DNA of 42,444 bases, taken from positions 1 to 42,444 of IMG/VR virus record IMGVR_UViG_3300012347_000185. The stretch is one strand, 5' to 3'. The notes beneath the pieces are model-generated. The model saw only the letters and a list, made by a program, of their open reading frames with translations. It was not told the origin of the DNA and ran no database searches. The position numbers were made by a program, and so were the translations under genes. Shown in pieces: positions 1 through 42,444 of this stretch. The stretch comes from a virus. Each line of letters starts with the position of its first letter. Position 1 is the first letter of the stretch.

Positions 1-258
1 GCCAAGCAGGCAGGCATCGACAACTTCGCCATGATCCACGACTCGTTCGGGACCACAGCAGGGGATGTCGAGCAGCTCTACCACACCGTCCGAGAGGGCT
101 TTGTGGAGATGTACGGAGACGTGGATGTGATCGAGTCCTTCCGGGATGAGATTCTCCAGCAGCTCTCCGAGAAGAACCGGGAGAAACTGGAAGCCCTGCC
201 TCAGCGTGGCAACTTGGATCTCTCTGAGGTGGTGAACAGTCGCTACTGCTTTGCCTGA
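1..258 (+). CDS. T7-like single-subunit RNA polymerase, C-terminal part (continues from 40134..42444 across the circular junction)
   Basis: Frame 1 reads AKQAGIDNFAMIHDSFGT...SRYCFA*. It has the HDSFGT motif and a T7-RNAP-style aromatic C-terminus. Bases 1-55 duplicate 42390-42444. Confidence 0.95.
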   Translation, partial: AKQAGIDNFAMIHDSFGTTAGDVEQLYHTVREGFVEMYGDVDVIESFRDEILQQLSEKNREKLEALPQRGNLDLSEVVNSRYCFA

Positions 259-1715: not shown

Positions 1716-2154
1716 TACAAAGAAGCGAGAGAAGACAGACTTCATCGCCATCCATTGCAGTGCTACAGGCAACCAGAACTTTGGTGCCTCGGACATCGAC
1801 AAGTGGCACCGCAAGAATGGCTGGGCCTGCATCGGATACCACTACGTCATCAAGCGTGACGGTACCGTGGAAGAGGGCCGTGAAGAGAGCGTGATTGGTG
1901 CCCATGTGGCCGACTGGAACTCAGTGTCCCTGGGTATCTGCATGGTCGGTGGCGTGAGTGCTGACGATCACACCAAGGCTGAGAACAACTTCACCAAGGC
2001 ACAGTTCGAGTCCCTGAAGAAGCTCTTGGTGGATCTCAAGGTGAGATACCCCAAGGCCAAGATCCAGGGTCACCGAGATTTCCCGAAAGTAGCTAAGGCC
2101 TGCCCATCGTTTGATGTGGCTGAGTGGCTGAAGGTTGCACAATTGGATAACTAA
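1699..2154 (+). CDS. N-acetylmuramoyl-L-alanine amidase (T7 gp3.5 lysozyme-like)
   Basis: TDFIAIHCSAT...GYHYVI.RDGTVEEGR...GAH...N..SLGICMVGG...GHRDF..KACPSFD matches the T7 lysozyme/PGRP amidase pattern. Start at MAYKAN. Confidence 0.9.
   Translation: MAYKANTKKREKTDFIAIHCSATGNQNFGASDIDKWHRKNGWACIGYHYVIKRDGTVEEGREESVIGAHVADWNSVSLGICMVGGVSADDHTKAENNFTKAQFESLKKLLVDLKVRYPKAKIQGHRDFPKVAKACPSFDVAEWLKVAQLDN
2131..2150 (+). promoter_or_regulatory. Candidate phage-RNAP promoter, copy 2 (AAGGTTGCACAATTGGATAA)
   Basis: Motif lies in the last codons of the amidase gene, 16 nt upstream of the primase-helicase start. Confidence 0.55.
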
Positions 2155-2165
2155 CCGAAAGATAT

Positions 2166-3779
2166 ATGGATAAGGACGAAAGTACATTTCTGAGACACAT
2201 CCCCTGTGAGAACTGCGGCTCGTCCGATGCCAATTCTTTGTACTCGGACAACCACCAGTTCTGCTTTGCCTGCAACACACACGTCAAGGGTGACGGTACA
2301 TGCACGGACGCACCAGTTCAGACCGAAAAGAAGGAACGAGGATTGATCTCTGGATCATACCAGGACCTGATCAAGAGAGGTATCCGAGAGGACACCTGCA
2401 GGAAGTTTGGCTACCAGGTTGGAGAGTACCAGGGTCGCACTGCCCAGATTGCCCCGTACTACGATGCGAGTGGAACCCTTATTGCCCAAAAGATCCGTAC
2501 CCCGAGTAAAGACTTCCCGGTCCTAGGGGATACCAAGGGTCAGTCCTCCTGCCTCTTTGGCTCTCAGCTCTGGAACTCAGGCAAGAAGATCATTGTCACC
2601 GAAGGTGAGATCGACTGCATGACAGTCAGTCAGGTCCAAGGGAACAAGTGGCCCGTGGTCTCTGTACCTAACGGTGCCAGTGGTGCAAAAAAATCCATTG
2701 CCAAAAATTTGGAGTACCTCAACAAGTTCGAAGAAGTCATCTTCATGTTCGACATGGATGAACCCGGAAAGGAAGCTGCCGCCGAGTGTGTGCAGCTCTT
2801 CGAACCAGGCAAGGCCAAGATCGCCACGCTCCCCTTCAAGGATGCCAATGAGTGCCTCCAGAAGGGTCAGCCTGAGGCTATCGTTTCCGCAATGTGGAAT
2901 GCCAAGGCCTATCGCCCTGACGGTATCCTGGCAGGTGAGGATCTCTGGGCTGAGGTGTCCTCCAACGAGGTCATCCCCTCCATCCCATACCCATGGGAGA
3001 AGCTGAACAGCATCACTCACGGTGCCCGTAAGGGTGAGCTGGTGACCATGACTGCAGGCTCAGGCGTGGGCAAGTCGGCCATCGTCCGAGAGATCGCCCA
3101 CCACCTCATCAAGTCAGGTGAGACCGTGGGCATGATCATGCTGGAAGAGAACCCAAAACGTACTGCTCTGGGCCTCATGGGCATCGAGCTAAACAAACCG
3201 CTCCATCTGAGCAGAGAGGGTGTAAGTGAAGCAGATATTAAAGCGTCTTTCGATAAGACTGTTGGTTCTGGTCGTGTGTATCTTTACAATCACTTTGGTT
3301 CTAGCGACATCGATAACCTTGTATCACGAGTTCGGTTCCTCGCTAAAGGCTGTGGTTGCAATTGGATTGTTCTGGATCATCTCTCTATCGTTGTCAGCGG
3401 TCTTGGTGACGGAGACGAACGCCGCCTTATCGACAACGCGATGACCTCCCTGCGTACCCTGGTTGAAGAGACCGGGGTTGGACTGTTCCTCGTGTCACAC
3501 CTGAAGCGTCCCTCGGATGGCAAGGGGCATGAGGAGGGGGCCAAGACTTCCCTGTCTCAGCTCCGTGGTTCAGCAGCTATCGGCCAGCTCAGTGACATGG
3601 TCATTGGTCTGGAGCGGAACCAGCAAAGCGACAATCCCAACGTAACAACTCTGCGTATCCTGAAGAACCGCTTTAGTGGTGAGACAGGGGAGGCGGGGTA
3701 CTTACTGTATGATCGTGACACTGGTCGTCTCTCGGAGACTACTGGTGATTTCAAAGACGAAACTCAATCGGAATTCTAA
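2166..3779 (+). CDS. Primase-helicase (T7 gp4-like)
   Basis: 537 aa. N-terminal Cys4 zinc finger (CENCGSSD...CFACNTH), TOPRIM VTEGEIDCM, Walker A GSGVGKS, DnaB-like C-terminal domain. Confidence 0.95.
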   Translation: MDKDESTFLRHIPCENCGSSDANSLYSDNHQFCFACNTHVKGDGTCTDAPVQTEKKERGLISGSYQDLIKRGIREDTCRKFGYQVGEYQGRTAQIAPYYDASGTLIAQKIRTPSKDFPVLGDTKGQSSCLFGSQLWNSGKKIIVTEGEIDCMTVSQVQGNKWPVVSVPNGASGAKKSIAKNLEYLNKFEEVIFMFDMDEPGKEAAAECVQLFEPGKAKIATLPFKDANECLQKGQPEAIVSAMWNAKAYRPDGILAGEDLWAEVSSNEVIPSIPYPWEKLNSITHGARKGELVTMTAGSGVGKSAIVREIAHHLIKSGETVGMIMLEENPKRTALGLMGIELNKPLHLSREGVSEADIKASFDKTVGSGRVYLYNHFGSSDIDNLVSRVRFLAKGCGCNWIVLDHLSIVVSGLGDGDERRLIDNAMTSLRTLVEETGVGLFLVSHLKRPSDGKGHEEGAKTSLSQLRGSAAIGQLSDMVIGLERNQQSDNPNVTTLRILKNRFSGETGEAGYLLYDRDTGRLSETTGDFKDETQSEF

Positions 3780-3980
3780 ATGACACAGAACGACATCATC
3801 ATTCATCACCTTATGCGCTCAGGCAGCATTTCGCAGCGTGAGGCACTGATCGACTACTCGATCCAGTCCCTGACAAAACGTATCAGCGAGTTGCGTGACG
3901 AGGGTTATGAGATCCAGACCCAGCACAAGAACCACCCAGTGACTGGCCAGCGTTACGCTCGGTATGTCCTGAAGAAGTAA
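3780..3980 (+). CDS. Small winged-helix-like protein (66 aa), function unknown
   Basis: Start abuts the helicase stop. SISQREALIDYSIQSLTKRISELRDEGY resembles an HTH or wHTH. Confidence 0.55.
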   Translation: MTQNDIIIHHLMRSGSISQREALIDYSIQSLTKRISELRDEGYEIQTQHKNHPVTGQRYARYVLKK

Positions 3981-3986
3981 AGATTA

Positions 3987-4137
3987 CGGAACGAAGCGTG
4001 ATGCGGTGGCACGGTTGCACGTTGGAGTGCATCGCCCCTCAAGTGGCTCGATTGCTTGATACTGCCGGGAGATATCCCATGGCTACACAGCAGTCTTGTT
4101 AGGGGTCTAGTGGGTTCGACTCCCACCGTTCCGACCA
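3987..4137 (+). ncRNA. tRNA-like element, 151 nt, non-canonical length
   Basis: CGGAACG (3987-3993) pairs perfectly with CGTTCCG (4127-4133). A canonical T arm GTGGG-TTCGACT-CCCAC (4110-4126) sits directly next to it, followed by A and an encoded CCA (4135-4137). I could not fold the interior into a normal cloverleaf by eye. Confidence 0.45.
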
Positions 4138-4165
4138 TACATTAACGCACGTCGAAAGGGACAGC

Positions 4166-5953
4166 GTGGCACTTATATTCGATTTAGAAACAGATGGATT
4201 GCTGGATGAAGTAAGCAAGATACATTGTTTGGTTATCAAGGACACAGAGACTGGTGAGGTTATCCAGTGTGACAGTGAGCACAACAACATTGAGCCTGGC
4301 CTCAAGCTGCTGACCAAGGGTGACATCATTGCTGGTCACAACGTCATCAAGTATGACCTTCCTGTAATCCAGAAACTGTACCCTTGGTTCAAGGTAGACC
4401 CCTCCAAGGTCTTCGATACCCTAGTTGCCACGCGACTGATCTGGGCGAACGTCAAGGACACTGACAACATCCTCCTCAAGCAGGAGAAACTCCCCGGCAA
4501 ACTCTTCGGGTCTCACTCACTGGCTGCTTGGGGCTATCGCCTTGGCAACTACAAGGGTGACTACTCGGGTGGCTGGGAGACCTTCTCTCAGGAGATGCTC
4601 GACTACTGCGTCCAGGACGTAGAGGTCACTGCAGCCCTGTACCAGAAGATCATCGACAAGGACTATGCACAGGAAGCCCTGAAGCTGGAGCACGAGGTGG
4701 CATGGCTCATGGCCAAGCAGGAGCGCAACGGTTTCCACTTCGATATGAAGAAAGCCGCTGAACTTCTGGCCACTCTGGTACAACGCCGGGGTGAGCTGGA
4801 GAGAGAGCTGAAGGAGTACTTCGGCTCTTGGGAAGTCCAGATGCCTGACTTCATACCCAAGGTCAACAACAAGACCCGTGGTTATGTGAAGGGTGTCCCT
4901 GTAGCCAAGGTCAAGATGGTGGAGTTCAACCCCTCATCTCGTGACCACATCGCAGATCGCTTGATCACCCTCTACGGGTGGAAGCCTGTGGATTTCACTG
5001 AGGGTGGCAAGCCCATGGTGGATGAAGTGGTGCTAGGCAAGCTGACCTACCCACCTTGCAAACAACTCACCGAGTACCTTCTCGTCCAGAAGCGAATCTC
5101 TCAGCTCAATGAGGGTGGCCAAGCCTGGATGAAGTGCGAAAAGAAAGGGAAGATCCATGGATCTATTAATCCGAACGGAGCAGTCACTGGACGTGCTACT
5201 CACAGTTACCCGAATATTTCTCAAGTGCCTTCTTCTGGCTCTCCTTATGGGCCTGAGTGCCGTGCTCTTTTTACTGTGCCTGATGATTGGGTCTTGGTGG
5301 GGGCAGATGCTTCTGGCCTAGAGCTGAGATGCCTGGCCCACTTCATGGCCAAGTGGGACGGTGGCAAGTATGCAGAGATCCTGTTGGGCGGTGACATCCA
5401 CACGGAGAACCAGAAAGCCGCTGGCCTATCAACTCGTAACCAAGCAAAGACATTTATCTATGCATTCCTCTACGGAGCCGGAGACGCAAAGATCGGCTCC
5501 ATTACTGGTGGAGCTGCAAGTGAGGGAAGGAAACTCAAACAGAAGTTTCTACGCTCGTTGCCAGCCCTTGGACGACTGGTTGAAGCTGTCCAATCGGCTG
5601 CTAAGCGAGGCTACCTCGTCGGGCTGGACGGGCGGCATATTCACGTTAGAAGTTCACACGCTGCACTGAACACCCTCCTGCAGGGTGCCGGGGCATTGAT
5701 CTGCAAGAAGTGGTTGGTCCTCCTAGAGGAACACCTACAGGCTGCAGGCTACAAGCACGGCTGGGATGGTGACTATGCCAACTGTGCATGGTCCCACGAT
5801 GAAGTGCAGATTGCCTGCAGAACACCAGAGATCGCTGAGGCTGTCCGCAAGATAGCTGAGGACTGTGTGTTGAAAGCTGGCGAGTACTTCGCTTTCCGCT
5901 GCCCAACTGCAGGTGAGTCCAAGGTCGGCAAGACCTGGGCTGACACCCATTGA
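4166..5953 (+). CDS. DNA polymerase, family A (T7 gp5-like)
   Basis: 595 aa, GTG start. Exo motif IFDLETDGL, pol motifs DASGLELR, QAKTFIYAFLYGAG, HDEVQ. Confidence 0.95.
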   Translation: MALIFDLETDGLLDEVSKIHCLVIKDTETGEVIQCDSEHNNIEPGLKLLTKGDIIAGHNVIKYDLPVIQKLYPWFKVDPSKVFDTLVATRLIWANVKDTDNILLKQEKLPGKLFGSHSLAAWGYRLGNYKGDYSGGWETFSQEMLDYCVQDVEVTAALYQKIIDKDYAQEALKLEHEVAWLMAKQERNGFHFDMKKAAELLATLVQRRGELERELKEYFGSWEVQMPDFIPKVNNKTRGYVKGVPVAKVKMVEFNPSSRDHIADRLITLYGWKPVDFTEGGKPMVDEVVLGKLTYPPCKQLTEYLLVQKRISQLNEGGQAWMKCEKKGKIHGSINPNGAVTGRATHSYPNISQVPSSGSPYGPECRALFTVPDDWVLVGADASGLELRCLAHFMAKWDGGKYAEILLGGDIHTENQKAAGLSTRNQAKTFIYAFLYGAGDAKIGSITGGAASEGRKLKQKFLRSLPALGRLVEAVQSAAKRGYLVGLDGRHIHVRSSHAALNTLLQGAGALICKKWLVLLEEHLQAAGYKHGWDGDYANCAWSHDEVQIACRTPEIAEAVRKIAEDCVLKAGEYFAFRCPTAGESKVGKTWADTH

Positions 5954-6563: not shown

Positions 6564-7274
6564 ATGAAGATTGCTGACATGAGTGTTGAATATCTGGACC
6601 ACATGGGTTCAGACCTGACCGTTGTGAACGCAGCTCGGGTTAGCTTTGCCAAAGAGCACGAAGAGTTTGACCACACGACTGACCGGGGACTGATCAAGTA
6701 CCTGGCCAAGCATAACCACTGGTCTCCCTTCGCTCATTGCTCAGCATCCTTCCGTGTCAAGGCTCCGATCTTCGTGGCCCGTCAGTTGGTGAAGCACACC
6801 GTGGGCTTTAGTTGGAATGAGGTAAGCCGTAGGTATGTGAATGACGACCCTGAGTTCTTCATTCCTGACGTGTGGCGCAAGGCAGCAGAGAACGTGAAGC
6901 AGGGCAGCTCCGATGAGCCTGTGCTGTTCAGCAGTGACCCCGCACGAGCCTCTACCGCCGCATGTTTCGAGACCTACAAGTACATGCTGAAGCTGGGTGT
7001 CTGTGCTGAGCAGGCCCGTATGGTCCTCCCCCAGAACACCATGACCGAGTGGATCTGGAGCGGAACCCTCTACGCTTGGTCCCGTATGTGTACCTTGCGA
7101 CTGGACTCCCATACCCAGAAGGAAACCCGTGAGGTTGCCCAATTGGTATCCTCCACCATGGCTGAAGTATTTCCGACCTCGTGGGAATTTTTAATGAACA
7201 TTGAACAGAAAGAAAAGCCATGCGTGTTGCTCTCATCGATGCCGACATCCTCGCCTACCAAGCCGCTGCAGTAA
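6564..7274 (+). CDS. thyX: FAD-dependent thymidylate synthase ThyX-like
   Basis: HWSPFAH, divergent signature ...KHTVGFSWNEVSRRY, and later SHTQKETRE, consistent with phage ThyX. Confidence 0.75.
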   Translation: MKIADMSVEYLDHMGSDLTVVNAARVSFAKEHEEFDHTTDRGLIKYLAKHNHWSPFAHCSASFRVKAPIFVARQLVKHTVGFSWNEVSRRYVNDDPEFFIPDVWRKAAENVKQGSSDEPVLFSSDPARASTAACFETYKYMLKLGVCAEQARMVLPQNTMTEWIWSGTLYAWSRMCTLRLDSHTQKETREVAQLVSSTMAEVFPTSWEFLMNIEQKEKPCVLLSSMPTSSPTKPLQ

Positions 7275-34473: not shown

Positions 34474-34543
34474 GTGTTGGTGCGTTTGCATCAGTTCGTT
34501 TTTACTGTGTTTTTATACAGTACTTTGAGACATCCTCAGGTCA

Positions 34544-34683
34544 CACCTCAAGCTCACCTCAAGCTCACCTCAAGCTCACCACCAGACCACCACCAGATCA
34601 CCTCAAGCTCACCACCAGGTGACACCTCAGGACCTCCACAGATCTGCCCTCAGATCACCTCAAGCTCACCACCAGGTGACACC
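34544..34683 (+). repeat. 11-bp phased tandem array (CACCTCAAGCT / CACCACCAGNT) with an embedded 31-bp perfect direct repeat
   Basis: Seven contiguous 11-mers at 34544-34620. GATCACCTCAAGCTCACCACCAGGTGACACC occurs at 34596-34626 and again at 34653-34683. Confidence 0.9.
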
Positions 34684-38294: not shown

Positions 38295-38642
38295 ATGGTT
38301 GTGCCCCTGAAGGATGCAATTCAGCTAATTCAAGGGATCTCCCAAATAGAACCGGAGATGCCCTTGCAGCAACTACATGTACTACTCCTCATTGCGGAAG
38401 CAGGGGAGGGGACATCACTTACAGACCTGGCCAAGAAAGCAGGCATAGGTCTAGCAACTGCGTCTCGTTATGTTTCCGCACTAGGCAAACAGAACAGGCA
38501 CAGGCAGGAGGGGCTACTTCTAGTAGAATCCTTCGAGGACCCTATGGAAAGGCGAAAAAAGATAATTCGCCTGACAGGTAAGGGTAAATCCGCACTCATG
38601 AAACTGATAGGAGAACTGAATGCCCATCTACCAAAGGGGTGA
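38295..38642 (+). CDS. MarR-family-like winged-helix transcriptional regulator (candidate repressor)
   Basis: 115 aa. SLTDLAKKAGIGLATASRYVSAL...GLLLVESFEDPMERRKKIIRLTGKG fits the MarR HTH plus wing pattern. Confidence 0.75.
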   Translation: MVVPLKDAIQLIQGISQIEPEMPLQQLHVLLLIAEAGEGTSLTDLAKKAGIGLATASRYVSALGKQNRHRQEGLLLVESFEDPMERRKKIIRLTGKGKSALMKLIGELNAHLPKG

Positions 38643-39657
38643 TGCCTTCATGGTGTCAGTCGGAAGTAAGGGAAACCGCTACCGACAGTCCTTCAAGACC
38701 AAACAGGAAGCTGAACTGGCAGAACTGCAGGCATTGACCCGCCTGAAGGCCTCAGGAAGCCCTCTAGAAGCCTCTACAAGCCCCCCAATTGATGTAGTTA
38801 AGGGCTACACACTCAAGGATGCCCACGACCTCACCTGGAGGCTCTACTGGAAAGGTGACAAGGGCAAGGGTTGCCACGAGGTGACCATCAACTGTGTCTT
38901 TCGGACGATCCCGAGTCAGACACTGCTGACCGATATCACTCCCGCAATGGTCCTTGAGGCCATCGAAGAATGGGAGGATGAGGGCAACTCAGGCTCTACG
39001 GTCAACCGCAAGGTGTCTCACATCTCCAAGATGCTGAACACCGCAGCGGAGCAGGGGTGGATCAATGCTGTCCCCAAGCTGCCCCGCAGGAAGCCTGGCA
39101 AGCACCGCATCCGGTGGATGGCCGAGCAGGAGGAGCTGAGGGTCCTGAACGCCTGCACCCAGTTGGGTCTGGACGATCTGAGGGACTTCATCGTGGTGGC
39201 CATCGACACTGGCTTCCGTAGGTCGGAGCTGCTGGGCCTCGTGTCCAACGACTTCGTCAACGGGATGGTCCAGCTCCACGCTGGGTCCACCAAGAGCGAC
39301 AAGGCGAGGGCTGTCCCGGCTACCCGTAGGGTGTCCGAGATCCTCACCCGCAGGTCTGTCAACAGGAAGCTCTTCGACTTCCAGTTCCACACCCTGAGGG
39401 CACGTTGGCTGTCCCTGAAGTCCCACCTAGGGATGGACGATGACACCCAGTTCGTCATCCACATGCTGCGCCATACGTGTGCATCTCGGATGGTCCAGAG
39501 GGGTGTCAACCTGGCCGTGGTTCAGCAGTGGATGGGTCACTCCAACATCGCCACCACGCTACGGTATGCCCACCTTGCACCTGACAGCCTGGCCATCGGA
39601 CGTGAAGCCCTTGAGCAAGTATCCACAGTTCCTCTCTTGAGGGCTGTGAACTGTTGA
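38620..39657 (+). CDS. int: Tyrosine integrase/recombinase
   Basis: 345 aa with GGAG RBS. Catalytic-domain signature: TGFRRSELLGL (Arg), HMLRHTCASRMVQRG (H-x-x-R), GHSNIATTLRYAHL (Tyr). Confidence 0.9.
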   Translation: MPIYQRGDAFMVSVGSKGNRYRQSFKTKQEAELAELQALTRLKASGSPLEASTSPPIDVVKGYTLKDAHDLTWRLYWKGDKGKGCHEVTINCVFRTIPSQTLLTDITPAMVLEAIEEWEDEGNSGSTVNRKVSHISKMLNTAAEQGWINAVPKLPRRKPGKHRIRWMAEQEELRVLNACTQLGLDDLRDFIVVAIDTGFRRSELLGLVSNDFVNGMVQLHAGSTKSDKARAVPATRRVSEILTRRSVNRKLFDFQFHTLRARWLSLKSHLGMDDDTQFVIHMLRHTCASRMVQRGVNLAVVQQWMGHSNIATTLRYAHLAPDSLAIGREALEQVSTVPLLRAVNC

Positions 39658-39750: not shown

Positions 39751-39808
39751 AGCTTGAGGTGCTAGTAACTTAACCGTTGTGGAGGTTCGAGTCCTCTCGA
39801 CCGCACCA
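39751..39808 (+). other. Candidate attP core: 3' two-thirds of a tRNA-Leu(GAG)-like gene
   Basis: Anticodon loop TTGAGGT (39754-39760), GCTAG stem strand, long variable arm, T arm GGAGG-TTCGAGT-CCTCT, acceptor strand CGACCGC, then A and CCA. There is no matching 5' acceptor strand or D arm upstream. Confidence 0.6.
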
Positions 39809-40133: not shown

Positions 40134-42444
40134 ATGCAAAACTTTAACCTTGAAGAAGACTTGATGTCACTCCAGATTCAACTGGAGGAGGGGATGACCC
40201 AACGAGGCGCTGAGAAGTACCTCCGGGATGTCTCCAAGGCCATCTCTGCTGGCCGTGAGGAGTCCACCGCATACGGGACAACCATCCTGTCCCACCGCCT
40301 GGAGACCCTCTCCAAGGCCATCGACGAGTGGAAGCAGGTCACCTCCAAGGGTTCCGCTGGGGTGCGCTCTGCGACCTACCCCAAGGTCAAGGACGTAGAC
40401 AGCCGTTTGCTGGCCTTCCTGACCCTCAAGAGCGTCCTGTCGGGCATCTCCAGCCTCAGGACCCTCCAGTTCGTCGGAGTGGCCATAGGGTCGGCTGTGG
40501 AGGACGAGCTGCGGTTCAGCCTGATCCGGGAGACCGAGCGCAAGGCCTACGAGAAGCTGGTCATCGGTGCCAAGAAGCGCACCTCAGGTCACTACCGCCA
40601 CATGTACGCCGTGCGTCAGGCAGATCGTCTCGAGGATGGCTGGAAGCGGTGGGCCCGGACTGACCGCCTCCATGTGGGCATCAAGCTCCTCGACCTGTGC
40701 ATCCAGTCCGTGGGTCTGGTCGAGCTAACCCACCAGAAGGTTGATAAAGATCAATCGATCAAGTACGTGAAGGCCCTGCCCGAGACCCTCGACTGGATCG
40801 AGAAAAAGAACGAGGTCACCCAGTTCCTGCGCCCCGTCTATGAACCCATGGTCGTGATCCCCCGTGATTGGACCACGCCCTTCAACGGGGGGTACATCAG
40901 CTCCAACATCAAGCCCTTGAAAATGGTCAAGACCAAAAACAAGGCCTACCTAGACGAGCTGAAGAACACCGACATGCCCATCGTCTACGAGGCCGTGAAC
41001 GCCCTGCAGAGGACCGCATGGCAGATCAACAGCCAGGTGCTGGAGGTCATGGAGGAACTGTGGGCCACAGGGTCTGAGATCGCAGGGTTGCCTCCTCGTG
41101 AGGGTCTCCCATTGCCCACCAAGCCTCACGACATCGACTCGAATGAGGAAGCCAAGCGTGAGTACCGCATCAAGGCGGCAAAGATCCACGTTCAGAACCT
41201 CTCCCTGCTGGGCCAGAGGATCGGCTTCAACATGGCTCTGGGAATCGCTCGTCGCTACGAGAAGTTCCGCAAGATCCACATGCCCTACCAGTTGGACTTC
41301 CGTGGTCGGATCTACGCGATCCCCCACCTGAATCCACAGGGGGCAGACTTTCAGAAGGCGCTCCTGCGGTTCGCCAATGGGAAACCGTTGGGGTCTGAGG
41401 GTTGGAAATGGTTGGCAATCCACGGTGCCAACGTTGCAGGCTACGACAAGGCCAGCTTTGAAGACCGTGTCAATTGGGTACAAGACAATGAAGATGAAAT
41501 TATCGCTATCGCATCAGACCCTTACAACAACCGAGGGTGGTGTTCTTCTGTGGGAGATGTGGAGATTGACAAGCCCTGGCAGTTCCTTGCCTTTTGCTTC
41601 GAGTGGGCCGGTTTCACCGAGCATGGTGAGTCGTTCGTATCGAAGCTGCCCGTGGCTATGGACGGTTCATGCTCTGGCATCCAGCACTTCTCGGCAATGC
41701 TACGCGATGAAGTCGGAGGATCTGCAGTCAACCTCGTCCCCAGGGAGCTTCCAGCAGATGTCTACCAGCTCGTGGCCAACAAGGTTATGGAACAAGTTGA
41801 GCACGATATTCTGCACGGCACCGAGGACGAGCTGAAGCACACCGAAGCCGGGGTTGCCTACGTCAAGCAGGGGACCAAGGCCATCGCTGCCCAGTGGAAG
41901 GAGTTTGGGATCACCCGCAAGGTGACCAAGCGATCCGTCATGACGCTGGCCTACGGGTCCAAGGAGTACGGCTTCAAGGAGCAGCTCATGGAGGACATCC
42001 TGCGTCCCGCCAAGCAGTCCAACAAGCCCTTCCCCTTCCAGGGTGACGGCTACCAGGCTGCTCAGTACATGGCCAAGGCGATCTGGGTCTCCGTGAACAA
42101 GGTGCTGGTGAAAGCTGGCGAGGCCATGAAGTGGCTCCAAGGTGCCGCCTCTCTGGCAGCATCTGAGGAACTCCCTGTCCGCTGGTCTACCGCCGTGGGC
42201 TTCCCCGTGATGCAGGCCTATGCCGATCTGGAGAAGCGCAAGGTCAAGACCGCGATCAACGGGAAGCTGGTGTACCTGACCATGTACCAAGACAAGGACA
42301 ATCTGGACCGCCGCAAGCAGTCCTCAGGGATCGCCCCCAACTTTGTCCACTCCTGCGATGCAGCACACATGATGCTGACCGTGACGAGGGCCAAGCAGGC
42401 AGGCATCGACAACTTCGCCATGATCCACGACTCGTTCGGGACCA
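40134..42444 (+). CDS. T7-like single-subunit RNA polymerase, N-terminal and central part (runs off the window; continues at base 56)
   Basis: MQNFNLEED... Contains YQLDFRGRIY, PWQFLAFCFEW, MDGSCSGIQHFSAMLRD, TRKVTKRSVMTLAYG, HDSFGT. Joined with 56..258 it gives an 837-aa protein. Confidence 0.95.
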   Translation, partial: MQNFNLEEDLMSLQIQLEEGMTQRGAEKYLRDVSKAISAGREESTAYGTTILSHRLETLSKAIDEWKQVTSKGSAGVRSATYPKVKDVDSRLLAFLTLKSVLSGISSLRTLQFVGVAIGSAVEDELRFSLIRETERKAYEKLVIGAKKRTSGHYRHMYAVRQADRLEDGWKRWARTDRLHVGIKLLDLCIQSVGLVELTHQKVDKDQSIKYVKALPETLDWIEKKNEVTQFLRPVYEPMVVIPRDWTTPFNGGYISSNIKPLKMVKTKNKAYLDELKNTDMPIVYEAVNALQRTAWQINSQVLEVMEELWATGSEIAGLPPREGLPLPTKPHDIDSNEEAKREYRIKAAKIHVQNLSLLGQRIGFNMALGIARRYEKFRKIHMPYQLDFRGRIYAIPHLNPQGADFQKALLRFANGKPLGSEGWKWLAIHGANVAGYDKASFEDRVNWVQDNEDEIIAIASDPYNNRGWCSSVGDVEIDKPWQFLAFCFEWAGFTEHGESFVSKLPVAMDGSCSGIQHFSAMLRDEVGGSAVNLVPRELPADVYQLVANKVMEQVEHDILHGTEDELKHTEAGVAYVKQGTKAIAAQWKEFGITRKVTKRSVMTLAYGSKEYGFKEQLMEDILRPAKQSNKPFPFQGDGYQAAQYMAKAIWVSVNKVLVKAGEAMKWLQGAASLAASEELPVRWSTAVGFPVMQAYADLEKRKVKTAINGKLVYLTMYQDKDNLDRRKQSSGIAPNFVHSCDAAHMMLTVTRAKQAGIDNFAMIHDSFGT
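42390..42444 (+). repeat. 55-nt terminal overlap identical to bases 1-55 (circular-assembly closure)
   Basis: Direct comparison of both ends shows every base identical. Confidence 0.98.

What the first reader, a model, noticed from the sequence alone, without database searches (positions are those of the whole stretch)
3987..4137. A 151-nt tRNA-like element between the helicase and DNA polymerase genes
A perfect 7-bp acceptor helix (CGGAACG with CGTTCCG) closes a 151-nt segment. Its 3' side has a textbook T arm (GTGGG TTCGACT CCCAC), a discriminator A and an encoded CCA. The interior is about 75 nt too long for a tRNA. It contains a D-arm-like hairpin (GCAC-GTTGGA-GTGC), a long helix (CCCCTCAAG with CTTG-TT-AGGGG), and nested hairpins (ACTGC/GCAGT, GGGA-GATA-TCCC). 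I could not place a 7-nt anticodon loop. Options are an interrupted or intron-bearing tRNA, a tRNA-derived structured RNA with another role, or a decayed tRNA. It also embeds a near-copy of the promoter motif (CGGTTGCACGTTGGAG, 4012-4027), so promoter and RNA structure may be intertwined.
Basis: partly seen in the sequence, partly recalled or inferred. Interest (0 to 1): 0.65.

Follow-up and report, generated by a model that had tools for sequence, protein, structure and literature searches.

The report
Giant-armed tRNA-like RNA cassette in phage
A temperate T7-like phage carries, just upstream of its DNA polymerase gene, a 151-base RNA gene built on a leucine-tRNA frame that cannot decode, and close relatives carry true tRNAs, other tRNA look-alikes or nothing at the same spot.

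Summary
Window 3987-4137 has a perfect 7-bp acceptor helix, a canonical T arm, discriminator A and CCA. That architecture with a TTYRANN loop occurs once in the genome against 0.025 expected.

It is not a working tRNA and not a cleanly interrupted one. It has the five-helix layout of a class II tRNA:
- acceptor helix;
- D-like hairpin CGTG/CACG;
- an "anticodon" hairpin with a 6-nt loop;
- a 71-nt arm in the variable-arm position;
- T arm.

ARAGORN calls exactly this model once the long arm is shortened.

Its two ends match a phage tRNA-Leu(GAG): 13 of 16 bases at the 5' end and 29 of 29 at the 3' end. Its 37-nt centre is 92% identical to a similarly folded RNA in an unrelated phage. There it lies in a ~247-nt insertion that sister contigs lack.

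The slot between the HTH gene and the polymerase gene is hypervariable. It holds true tRNAs, at least five other tRNA-like cassettes, plain hairpins, small ORFs or nothing.

The likeliest mechanism is inferred, not shown. The element is co-transcribed, then cut out by RNase P and the 3' tRNA-processing enzymes as a stable tRNA-framed RNA. The closest known analogue is T4 RNAC, whose role is unknown. No orthologue was found, so direct covariation could not be tested.

The parts
3987..4137 (+). The whole 151-nt tRNA-like element. It has a class II tRNA layout: a five-way junction.
3981..3986 (+). 5' flank AGATTA. With C3987 it reads AGATTAC, the same string that precedes four other non-homologous cassettes in relatives. 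The expected RNase P site is between A3986 and C3987.
   Evidence: for the shared flank. The cleavage site is inferred.
3987..3993 (+). Acceptor helix, 5' strand CGGAACG. It is identical to the 5' end of phage tRNA-Leu(GAG) in L081.
3997..4013 (+). D-arm-like hairpin CGTG-ATGCGGTGG-CACG. The loop contains GG. It follows a 3-nt linker AAG, so position 8 is A rather than U.
   Evidence: ARAGORN model.
4016..4031 (+). Hairpin in the anticodon-arm position, TGCAC-GTTGGA-GTGCA. The loop has 6 nt, so there is no normal anticodon. The hairpin is identical in L170/L171.
4011..4026 (+). Promoter-like string ACGGTTGCAC-GTTGGA, with 2 substitutions and 1 deletion relative to the phage promoter motif. Probably not a working promoter.
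4012..4048 (+). Conserved core, 34 of 37 bases identical to L170 502-538. It holds the anticodon-position hairpin and the base of the long arm, including CAAGYGGCU.
4035..4105 (+). 71-nt irregular long arm in the variable-arm position. The base helix is GCCCCU/AGGGGU, and the arm is capped by GGGA-GATA-TCCC.
   Evidence: z = -2.6; removing it restores an ARAGORN call. Two compensatory pairs at the base relative to L170.
4110..4126 (+). Canonical T arm GTGGG-TTCGACT-CCCAC.
   Evidence: Identical to L081 tRNA-Leu(GAG).
4127..4137 (+). Acceptor 3' strand CGTTCCG, discriminator A, and encoded CCA (an RCCA motif).
4138..4165 (+). A/T-rich 3' flank TACATTAACGCA, then the polymerase leader hairpin GTC-GAAAGG-GAC (4151-4162). 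The hairpin holds the ribosome-binding site, 4 nt before the GTG start at 4166.
   Evidence: The stem covaries GTC/GAC to CTC/GAG across loci.
2131..2147 (+). Nearest upstream copy of the phage promoter motif. No + strand terminator-like site lies between it and the element, so co-transcription with helicase, HTH and polymerase genes is inferred.

Best explanation
The element is a tRNA-derived RNA gene that no longer decodes.

It keeps the frame of a class II leucine-type tRNA: a 7-bp acceptor helix, a D-like hairpin, a T arm, A73 and CCA. Its anticodon-position hairpin has a 6-nt loop, and its variable arm is 71 nt long. It appears to be a mosaic. The ends come from a phage tRNA-Leu lineage. 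The centre is a conserved core also found in an unrelated phage.

It sits in an accessory slot between the HTH_39 gene and the DNA polymerase gene. This slot turns over very fast among relatives.

Inferred mechanism (none of these steps is shown):
1. The element is transcribed inside the helicase-HTH-polymerase message from the phage promoter at 2131.
2. The stacked acceptor/T helix with its ACCA tail is recognised by host RNase P, which would cut between A3986 and C3987.
3. RNase E, 3' exonucleases and the CCA-adding enzyme finish the 3' end, just after 4137.
4. This releases a stable ~151-nt tRNA-framed RNA.
5. The same cuts sever the message directly upstream of the polymerase leader hairpin.

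If the RNA has a role of its own, the conserved hairpin and junction, not decoding, are the likely working part. That role is unknown.
For: tRNA ancestry
- The 29-nt 3' end and the 7-nt 5' end are identical to tRNA-Leu(GAG) in L081, and 13 of the first 16 nt match.
- The same 3' end was not found in any tRNA gene of 185,579 bacterial species genomes.

Fold
- ARAGORN at default thresholds calls a tRNA over the whole element once the long arm is deleted or shortened. The call has a 6-nt anticodon loop ('tRNA-???(tg)').
- All 21 base pairs of the four short helices are Watson-Crick.

The core is conserved elsewhere
- L170/L171 share 34 of 37 nt and the same five-way layout: closing helix, hairpin 1, an identical hairpin 2, a long arm, and a T-loop-like hairpin abutting the 3' closing strand. 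The fold has z = -3.7.
- The base of the long arm differs by two compensatory pairs.

Accessory and exchangeable
- The four closest relatives by polymerase (91-94% aa identity) have four different slot contents.
- Phages with an identical 66-aa HTH protein also differ in the slot.
- The slot holds tRNA-Gly and tRNA-Gln, and other closures made of acceptor helix, T hairpin and ACC: L015, L159, L164, L016/L154, L010/L039.
- Six of 37 inserts pass a strict test (T-loop, acceptor, NCC) against 0.11 expected from shuffles.
- Slot RNA families show compensatory changes.
- The L170 RNA lies in a ~247-nt insertion flanked by a 13-nt direct repeat, and sister contigs lack the insertion.

Transcription context
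- A promoter lies at 2131 with no + strand terminator before the polymerase gene.

Precedent
- T4 RNAC (139 nt) has the same plan: a terminal helix, a canonical T arm abutting it, and long inner arms.
- RNase E cutting 1-3 nt after an encoded CCA and RNase P cutting at the 5' end are the established E. coli pathway (PMC2190699 abstract).
Against: - No orthologue of this exact element was found in IMG/VR, JGI metagenomes or the Logan/ENA look-ups. Covariation of its acceptor and T helices cannot be tested, and it is a single sequence.
- No expression or processing data exist.
- Rfam gives no hit even at E <= 10.
- The whole-element fold is not exceptional (z = -1.5).
- Position 8 is A and the linker has 3 nt, which departs from the tRNA core.
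- C1:G72 and A(-1) are not the preferred bacterial RNase P context.
- The slot is empty in several relatives, so whatever the cassette does is dispensable.
- Only two distinct sequences carry the core.
Confidence: 0.55

Rival explanations
1. A decaying tRNA-Leu pseudogene. A phage tRNA gene was damaged by insertions and rearrangement, is neutral, and is on its way to loss.
For: - It is a single copy with no orthologues.
- The anticodon loop is abnormal and there is no Rfam or ARAGORN call.
- The slot is dispensable and turns over quickly, and some relatives have it empty.
Against: - All helices are perfectly paired.
- The long arm is more stable than shuffles.
- 36 nt at the ends are still identical to a working tRNA, while the middle is not random. 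It is shared at 92% with a differently framed RNA in another phage, with compensatory pairs at the arm base.
- Other cassettes in the slot keep their structure through compensatory changes.
Confidence: 0.2
2. A functional decoding tRNA that is interrupted. The extra ~75 nt are removed as an intron, or the RNA decodes abnormally, for example by reading two bases or shifting frame through its 6/8-nt loop.
For: - The acceptor helix, T arm, A73 and CCA are intact.
- LeuRS does not need the anticodon arm for charging (PMC2377443 abstract).
- 13 of 4365 deletion variants give canonical ARAGORN calls.
Against: - ARAGORN intron mode finds only a model with a different, mismatched acceptor.
- The 13 canonical calls disagree with each other (Ser, Cys, Asn, Gly).
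- 247 of the 261 calls anchored at the 5' end give the same 6-nt-loop model.
- The insert is too short for a group I intron and no intron family matches in Rfam.
- From general knowledge: no bacterial splicing route is known for an insert in the variable arm.
- U8 is replaced by A, which breaks the U8-A14 contact that LeuRS needs.
Confidence: 0.05
3. Mainly a DNA-level element. Either it is a weak or extra phage RNA polymerase promoter for the polymerase gene, or it is a selfish mobile DNA cassette whose hairpins serve its own movement.
For: - 4011-4026 is the only site besides the 7 promoters that matches the motif within 2 substitutions and 1 indel, against 0.48 expected per genome.
- From general knowledge: T7 has a promoter at the equivalent place, upstream of gene 4.7.
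- Relatives show presence or absence of cassettes.
- The L170 insertion has a 13-nt direct repeat.
- TTAC directly precedes five different cassettes.
Against: - From general knowledge: a 1-nt deletion in the spacing of a T7-type promoter is expected to be damaging.
- The same string is conserved inside the RNA core of a 41%-GC phage locus, and the 3.2 kb held shows no other copy of the motif.
- Relatives have no promoter in the slot.
- No transposase, reverse transcriptase or terminal inverted repeats are seen in the window.
- The tRNA features are oriented with transcription.
Confidence: 0.12
4. An integration site (attP) that carries part of a host tRNA gene.
For: The phage has a tyrosine integrase, and temperate T7-like phages integrate into tRNA genes.
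Against: - The element has both acceptor strands and lies about 7 kb from the integrase gene on the circular map (about 35 kb in window coordinates).
- A separate tRNA 3' fragment at 39772-39808, 115 nt after the integrase gene, fits the attP role.
- No bacterial tRNA in 185,579 species genomes has this 3' end.
Confidence: 0.02

Closest known systems
Phage-encoded class II tRNA-Leu (for example tRNA-Leu(GAG), L081 3084-3171)
   Same: The acceptor helix, T arm, A73 and CCA are identical. 13 of the first 16 nt match. The order of helices is the same five-helix order.
   Different: - The anticodon loop has 6 nt instead of 7.
- The variable arm has 71 nt instead of about 13-16.
- The acceptor-D linker has 3 nt, with A at position 8.
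- It is not called by ARAGORN or Rfam.
Bacteriophage T4 RNAC (species 1 RNA, rnaC)
   Same: - It is a phage-encoded stable RNA of similar size (139 nt against 151 nt).
- It has a terminal helix with a canonical T arm (CCGGG-UUCGAAU-CCCGG) abutting its 3' strand, and long inner arms in place of normal tRNA arms.
- It lies beside true tRNA genes.
- Its role is unknown (PMC3014915).
   Different: - There is no sequence similarity.
- The T4 terminal helix has U-U mismatches and no encoded CCA.
- T4 RNAC is a four-way junction, not a five-way one.
- It sits in a tRNA cluster, not between replication genes.
tRNA-like processing signals in messages (plant mitochondrial t-elements; the principle of tRNA punctuation)
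   Same: A tRNA-like fold sits between coding regions of a polycistronic transcript, where RNase P and 3' tRNA-processing enzymes could define mRNA ends (PMC1920247, listed).
   Different: The organelle examples belong to a different system. Cleavage here is only inferred, and the slot can be empty, so processing is not essential.
tmRNA tRNA-like domain
   Same: An acceptor helix, T arm and CCA close a much longer RNA.
   Different: - There is no G3:U70 pair, no tag reading frame and no pseudoknots.
- At 151 nt it is far too short.
- ARAGORN at default thresholds finds no tmRNA; a relaxed run gave only a spurious permuted call overrunning the test segment. Rfam finds none.
Bacterial Y-RNA-like YrlA (a tRNA-mimicking module)
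   Same: A non-coding RNA that copies the tRNA T arm and D arm (PMC4201824, listed).
   Different: No Ro60 gene was seen among the window proteins scanned and there is no Rfam hit.

Membership tests
Canonical tRNA (Rfam RF00005 / ARAGORN) | 7-bp acceptor helix, discriminator base and CCA | tested here: met
   3987-3993 pairs with 4127-4133 by Watson-Crick pairs only. A4134 and CCA 4135-4137 follow.
Canonical tRNA (Rfam RF00005 / ARAGORN) | T arm with a 5-bp stem and a 7-nt TTCRANN loop abutting the acceptor 3' strand | tested here: met
   GTGGG-TTCGACT-CCCAC at 4110-4126.
Canonical tRNA (Rfam RF00005 / ARAGORN) | Anticodon arm with a 7-nt loop carrying U33 and a 3-nt anticodon | tested here: not met
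   The loop is GTTGGA, 6 nt, or 8 nt if the closing C:G pair opens. ARAGORN reports 'tRNA-???(tg)'.
Canonical tRNA (Rfam RF00005 / ARAGORN) | Variable region of at most about 21 nt and total length of at most about 95 nt | tested here: not met
   The arm is 71 nt and the element is 151 nt.
Canonical tRNA (Rfam RF00005 / ARAGORN) | Recognised by standard detectors | tested here: not met
   ARAGORN finds 0 genes. Rfam finds nothing at the gathering score or at E <= 10.
Intron-bearing tRNA | Removing one contiguous insert restores a canonical tRNA, or the insert is a known intron class | tested here: not met
   ARAGORN intron mode gives an implausible model. The deletion scan gives no consistent canonical solution. 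No intron family matches in Rfam.
tmRNA | tRNA-like domain plus a tag-peptide reading frame, detected by ARAGORN or Rfam | tested here: not met
   In one search, ARAGORN at a lowered threshold gave only a spurious permuted-tmRNA call that overran the test segment. The third acceptor pair is G3:C70, not G3:U70.
Phage tRNA-like stable RNA of the T4 RNAC type | Terminal helix with a canonical T arm abutting its 3' strand, enlarged non-tRNA interior, phage-encoded | tested here: met
   The architecture is shared. There is no sequence homology, so this is likeness of kind, not shown common descent.
Phage tRNA-like stable RNA of the T4 RNAC type | Accumulates as a stable RNA processed by tRNA-maturation enzymes | not testable with these tools
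   Needs RNA from infected cells or an in vitro RNase P assay.
tRNA-like mRNA processing signal (t-element type) | Cleavage by RNase P and RNase Z/E defines the ends of neighbouring mRNAs | not testable with these tools
   Only the context fits: the element lies inside a polycistronic unit, with an RCCA tail and an A/U-rich 3' flank.
Phage RNA polymerase promoter of this genome | Match to ATGGTTGCMCAATTGGA with the correct spacing | tested here: not met
   It is not among the sites with at most 3 mismatches. It needs 2 substitutions and a 1-nt deletion.
attP with a tRNA fragment | Only the 3' part of a host tRNA, next to the integrase gene, matching a host tRNA | tested here: not met
   Both acceptor strands are present and the integrase gene is far away. 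No bacterial tRNA matches. The site at 39772-39808 fits attP instead.

The most novel reading that the evidence does not exclude
The element is one member of an unrecognised family of phage RNAs that is mobile and mosaic. In this family a tRNA acceptor/T frame serves as a processing and stability chassis. It carries a conserved non-tRNA core: the UGCAC-GUUGGA-GUGCA hairpin plus the CAAGYGGCU junction. The core would act in trans, for example as a decoy or sponge for a host tRNA-directed defence enzyme or for an RNA-binding protein. The slot upstream of the polymerase gene would then be an arms-race locus for such RNAs. This reading would also give a handle on the unexplained T4 RNAC/RNAD class.
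Probability: 0.25. Interest if true: 0.8.

Novelty: new variant of a known kind. Interest (0 to 1): 0.6.

Why it matters
Phage tRNA-like stable RNAs have been known since T4 RNAC and RNAD, and their roles are still unknown.

This locus offers a comparative route to that question. One short slot in a clade of freshwater T7-like phages swaps among true tRNAs, several unrelated tRNA look-alikes, hairpins and nothing. This happens even between phages whose neighbouring protein is identical.

The window's version shows that a tRNA frame can carry a 71-nt arm and a conserved foreign core. It resembles a natural version of the engineered 'tRNA scaffold'.

If these RNAs are processed and stable, there are two possible consequences. 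They may be a new class of phage accessory RNAs, possibly acting against host defences. Alternatively, they may be interchangeable mRNA-processing modules that set polymerase expression.

There is also an annotation point. Standard tRNA and Rfam scans miss all of them.

Tried and rejected
Detectors on the element
- ARAGORN default, relaxed, intron and tmRNA modes gave no credible gene.
- Rfam at the gathering score and at E <= 10 gave nothing.

Searches for orthologues (none found)
- BLAST against 80 polymerase-linked loci.
- Scans with the polymerase-leader pattern of IMG/VR and of the metagenomes.
- Exact 20-mers of the long arm and of the D region in IMG/VR.
- Exact-protein look-ups for the HTH protein, helicase relatives and neighbouring genes.
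- INPHARED phages by blastn gave only T-arm hits to ordinary tRNAs.

Host origin of the tRNA ends
- The 26-mer is absent from bacterial genomes.
- The 19-mer gave 6 hits with no tRNA call in any locus, close to the ~4 expected by chance; the sequence context was read for only one of them.

Alternative models
- A clean intron was rejected.
- An active promoter was considered unlikely. The 13-nt matches in L086 lie inside coding sequence.

Other leads that gave nothing
- More relatives of the L170 element were sought through its neighbouring ORF. This yielded one identical copy, two empty sites and unrelated loci, so there is no new variation for covariation.
- The L170 element against isolate phages gave nothing.
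- An HDV-like (theta) ribozyme reading of the GGCUGGG motif was rejected on topology by eye, and Rfam was silent.
- Bordetella phage BB8, the closest isolate checked, has small ORFs in the equivalent region and no such RNA.
- No tRNA-related enzyme was found among the window's accessory proteins.
- A covariance model built from only two sequences was judged not worth running.
Full report
CONTEXT

The window is a closed genome of about 42.4 kb. Bases 1-55 repeat exactly at 42390-42444. It belongs to a T7-like podophage with all genes on the + strand.
- Genes near the finding are a primase/helicase (2166-3779), a 66-aa HTH_39 protein (3780-3980) and a family A DNA polymerase (4166-5953, GTG start).
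- The phage also has a tyrosine integrase (38620-39657).
- The closest isolates by polymerase are Bordetella phage BB8 and Ralstonia phages, at about 62% aa identity.
- One helicase relative is labelled as coming from a Polynucleobacter MAG. The host is therefore probably a freshwater member of the Burkholderiales. This is an inference.
- A 17-nt motif, ATGGTTGCMCAATTGGA, occurs 7 times on the + strand only, against 0.16 expected. I take it to be the phage RNA polymerase promoter.
- The nearest copy upstream of the finding is at 2131. No + strand terminator-like site lies between it and the next promoter at 7131.
- The 185-nt gap that holds the finding should therefore be transcribed as part of the helicase-HTH-polymerase message. 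This too is an inference.

CGGAACG (3987-3993) pairs perfectly with CGTTCCG (4127-4133). The T arm GTGGG-TTCGACT-CCCAC (4110-4126) abuts the 3' strand. A and CCA follow.

A 7-bp closure plus any 5-bp/7-nt hairpin is common by chance: 24 in the genome against about 14 in shuffles. Requiring a TTYRANN loop leaves only this site, against 0.025 per shuffled genome.

Standard detectors see nothing.
- ARAGORN finds no tRNA or tmRNA in the window.
- Rfam finds nothing at the gathering scores.
- Rfam also finds nothing at E <= 10 on 3800-4300.

WHAT THE FOLD IS

The element has five helices in the order of a class II tRNA. I deleted the long helix (4035-4105), or replaced it with a normal 13-nt variable arm. 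ARAGORN at default thresholds then called a tRNA over exactly the whole element:
- a 7-bp acceptor helix;
- a 3-nt linker AAG;
- D stem CGTG/CACG with loop ATGCGGTGG;
- a 5-bp stem TGCAC/GTGCA with the 6-nt loop GTTGGA, reported as 'tRNA-???(tg)';
- the variable region;
- the T arm, A73 and CCA.

ARAGORN does not call that model.

I then scanned 4365 single-deletion variants.
- 261 calls were anchored at the element's 5' end.
- 247 of them were the same 6-nt-loop model.
- Only 13 gave a canonical anticodon, and these disagreed with one another (Ser, Cys, Asn, Gly).
- There is therefore no clean intron.

ARAGORN's own intron mode uses a different, mismatched acceptor and is not credible. The long arm alone folds as one irregular hairpin with z = -2.6.

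WHERE THE PARTS COME FROM

The ends. The 22-mer covering the T arm and the acceptor strand occurs once in IMG/VR, in L081.
- L081 is an unrelated contig with 28 tRNA genes. The match is its tRNA-Leu(GAG).
- Alignment shows 13 of 16 identical bases at the 5' end and 29 of 29 at the 3' end. The middle is unrelated.
- No bacterial species genome has a tRNA with this 3' end. The 26-mer is absent.
- The 19-mer gives 6 hits in loci where ARAGORN calls no tRNA, close to the roughly 4 expected by chance; the sequence context was read for only one of them.

The centre. A 20-mer of the anticodon-position hairpin hit one IMG/VR contig, L170. The 3.2 kb held for L170 is 41% GC and carries no T7-like genes.
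- Window 4012-4048 is 34 of 37 identical to L170 502-538.
- The L170 RNA folds with z = -3.7 into the same five-way plan. It has a closing helix of 17 bp without CCA and a first hairpin CGCGU-UUCG-AUGCG.
- It also has an identical second hairpin UGCAC-GUUGGA-GUGCA and a long arm.
- Last comes a hairpin with a T-loop-like loop (CUUGG-UGAAAAU-CCAAG) that abuts the 3' closing strand.
- The base of the long arm is GCCCCU/AGGGGU in the window and GCCCAG/CUGGGC in L170. That is two compensatory pairs within otherwise conserved sequence, and both share CAAGYGGCU.
- In L170 and L171 this RNA lies in a ~247-nt insertion flanked by a 13-nt direct repeat, GGCCGTAAAAAAT. Sister contigs L172 and L173 have the uninterrupted site.

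The window element therefore looks like a mosaic: a tRNA-Leu-type frame around a core that also exists, differently framed, in another phage.

THE SLOT IS HYPERVARIABLE

I collected relatives in four ways: through the polymerase, through a conserved leader pattern, through the exact HTH protein and through helicase relatives. This gave 44 distinct inserts of 11-264 nt.
- The four closest relatives (polymerase 91-94% aa identity) have four different contents: an empty slot, a 'GGCTGGG' RNA, a plain hairpin and a 193-nt two-domain RNA.
- Phages with an identical HTH protein also differ in the slot.
- True tRNAs occur in the same place: tRNA-Gly(TCC) in L013, L020 and L126, and tRNA-Gln(TTG) in L023. 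Like the window element, they end 16-17 nt before the polymerase leader.
- Other cassettes that no detector calls have a closing helix, an abutting hairpin with a T-loop-like loop, and then ACC. They are L015 (94 nt), L164 (about 105 nt, loop TTCGATT), L159, L016/L154 and L010/L039.
- L159 is a 68-nt three-way junction whose only other arm ends in a GNRA loop, so it has no anticodon at all.
- A strict test (T-loop U1/A5, acceptor of at least 5 bp, NCC) is passed by 6 of 37 inserts of 50 nt or more, against 0.11 expected from shuffles.
- Families with several members keep their helices through compensatory changes.
- Five unrelated cassettes share the 5' flank AGATTAC. All filled slots share a 3' flank of the form TAYATTTAWYGC before the leader.

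Across cassettes, what is retained is the stacked acceptor/T helix plus RCC, not an anticodon.

MECHANISM (INFERRED)

A stacked acceptor/T helix with a T loop and an RCCA tail is what bacterial RNase P and the 3' tRNA-processing enzymes recognise. This is established knowledge. The E. coli pathway, with RNase E cutting 1-3 nt after an encoded CCA and RNase P cutting at the 5' end, is summarised in the PMC2190699 abstract.

I therefore expect the element to be cut out of the message at 3986/3987 and just after 4137. That would have two results.
- It would give a stable 151-nt RNA.
- It would free the polymerase mRNA. The polymerase leader is a small hairpin (GTC-GAAAGG-GAC, 4151-4162) that holds the ribosome-binding site and covaries to CTC/GAG in 14 loci.

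Which of the two outcomes is selected is unknown.
- The empty slots show the cassette is dispensable.
- The conserved core shared with L170 suggests the RNA itself matters.
- Charging by LeuRS is conceivable. A73 is present and the anticodon arm is dispensable for aminoacylation. However, U8 is replaced by A, which breaks the U8-A14 contact that LeuRS needs (PMC2377443 abstract).

THE PROMOTER-LIKE STRING

4011-4026 is the only site besides the 7 promoters that matches the motif within 2 substitutions and 1 indel, against 0.48 expected per genome. Three points argue that it is not a working promoter.
- It carries a 1-nt deletion.
- The same string is part of the RNA core conserved in L170, and the 3.2 kb held for L170 shows no other copy of the motif.
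- Relatives have no promoter in the slot.

I rate it as probably coincidental or vestigial. End-mapping would settle it.

COMPARISON WITH WHAT IS KNOWN

- It fails membership as a canonical tRNA (loop, arm length, detectors), as an intron-bearing tRNA, as a tmRNA, as a promoter and as an attP.
- The closest analogue in kind is T4 RNAC (species 1 RNA, 139 nt). Folding it shows a terminal helix, two long arms and a canonical T arm abutting the 3' strand. Its role is still unknown (PMC3014915).
- Plant mitochondrial t-elements are the closest functional analogy for tRNA-like processing signals (PMC1920247, listed).
- I found no paper describing tRNA-like cassettes in T7-like phages.

VERDICT

This is a real, tRNA-derived, non-decoding structured RNA gene. 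It is a new variant of the phage tRNA-like RNA kind, and it sits in a strikingly variable accessory slot.

There are three main limits. Only a single sequence is available. There is only one distant structural homologue. There are no expression data.

Noticed in passing
window 39772-39808 (with the integrase gene at 38620-39657): A second tRNA-like 3' end, GGAGGTTCGAGTCCTCTCGACCGCACCA, with no 5' acceptor partner. It lies 115 nt after a tyrosine integrase gene, so it is probably the phage attachment site in a host tRNA gene. The phage would then be temperate.
   Followed up: partly
window 1-55 and 42390-42444: An exact 55-nt terminal repeat that runs through the RNA polymerase gene. The contig is a circularly closed assembly of a genome of about 42,389 bp.
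   Followed up: partly
window 276, 2131, 7131, 11297, 33480, 35965, 40005 (all + strand): Seven copies of ATGGTTGCMCAATTGGA against 0.16 expected. This is presumably the phage RNA polymerase promoter.
   Followed up: partly
window 4151-4168: A conserved hairpin, GTC-GAAAGG-GAC, holds the polymerase ribosome-binding site just before the GTG start. The stem covaries to CTC/GAG in 14 related loci, which suggests translational control of the DNA polymerase.
   Followed up: partly
L170 409-670, L171, and the empty sites in L172 and L173: The structural homologue of the element lies in a ~247-nt insertion flanked by a 13-nt direct repeat, GGCCGTAAAAAAT. The repeat duplicates the end of the upstream ORF. 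Two sister contigs lack the insertion, which hints that these RNA cassettes move.
   Followed up: partly
L167 14086-14107, L169 1247-1268, L168 11489-11510; slot cassettes of L002, L008, L153, L163: The 22-nt motif GGCTGGGTAGCTCCCAGATATG opens one slot-cassette family. It also occurs exactly in unrelated large AT-rich phage contigs, 2 nt after a tRNA 3' end. In L168 it starts a ~190-nt RNA that ends in a T arm and ACCA. It has no Rfam family and its nature is unknown.
   Followed up: partly
slot 5' flanks in the window (3981-3987), L015, L016, L112 and L164: Five unrelated cassettes are all preceded by AGATTAC. TTAC is the target sequence of IS608-type elements. No transposase is present and the link is untested.
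   Followed up: no
L126, about 200 nt upstream of the polymerase leader: tRNA-Gly(TCC) is followed directly by a second structured cassette of the L012/L019 family. The slot can therefore hold tandem RNA cassettes.
   Followed up: no
window 34533-34679: An array of 11-nt tandem repeats (CACCTCAAGCT and variants) in the accessory region.
   Followed up: no
L013/L020 2897-2972: The tRNA-Gly(TCC) in the slot is called by ARAGORN. It scores just under the Rfam tRNA threshold (27.8 against 29 bits), so even the 'true' tRNAs of this slot are somewhat atypical.
   Followed up: partly
L152 and L028, slot: A cysteine-rich ORF of about 127 aa that looks HNH-like occupies the slot in some relatives. Pfam gives only a weak NinG hit. 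A nuclease here could drive cassette turnover.
   Followed up: partly
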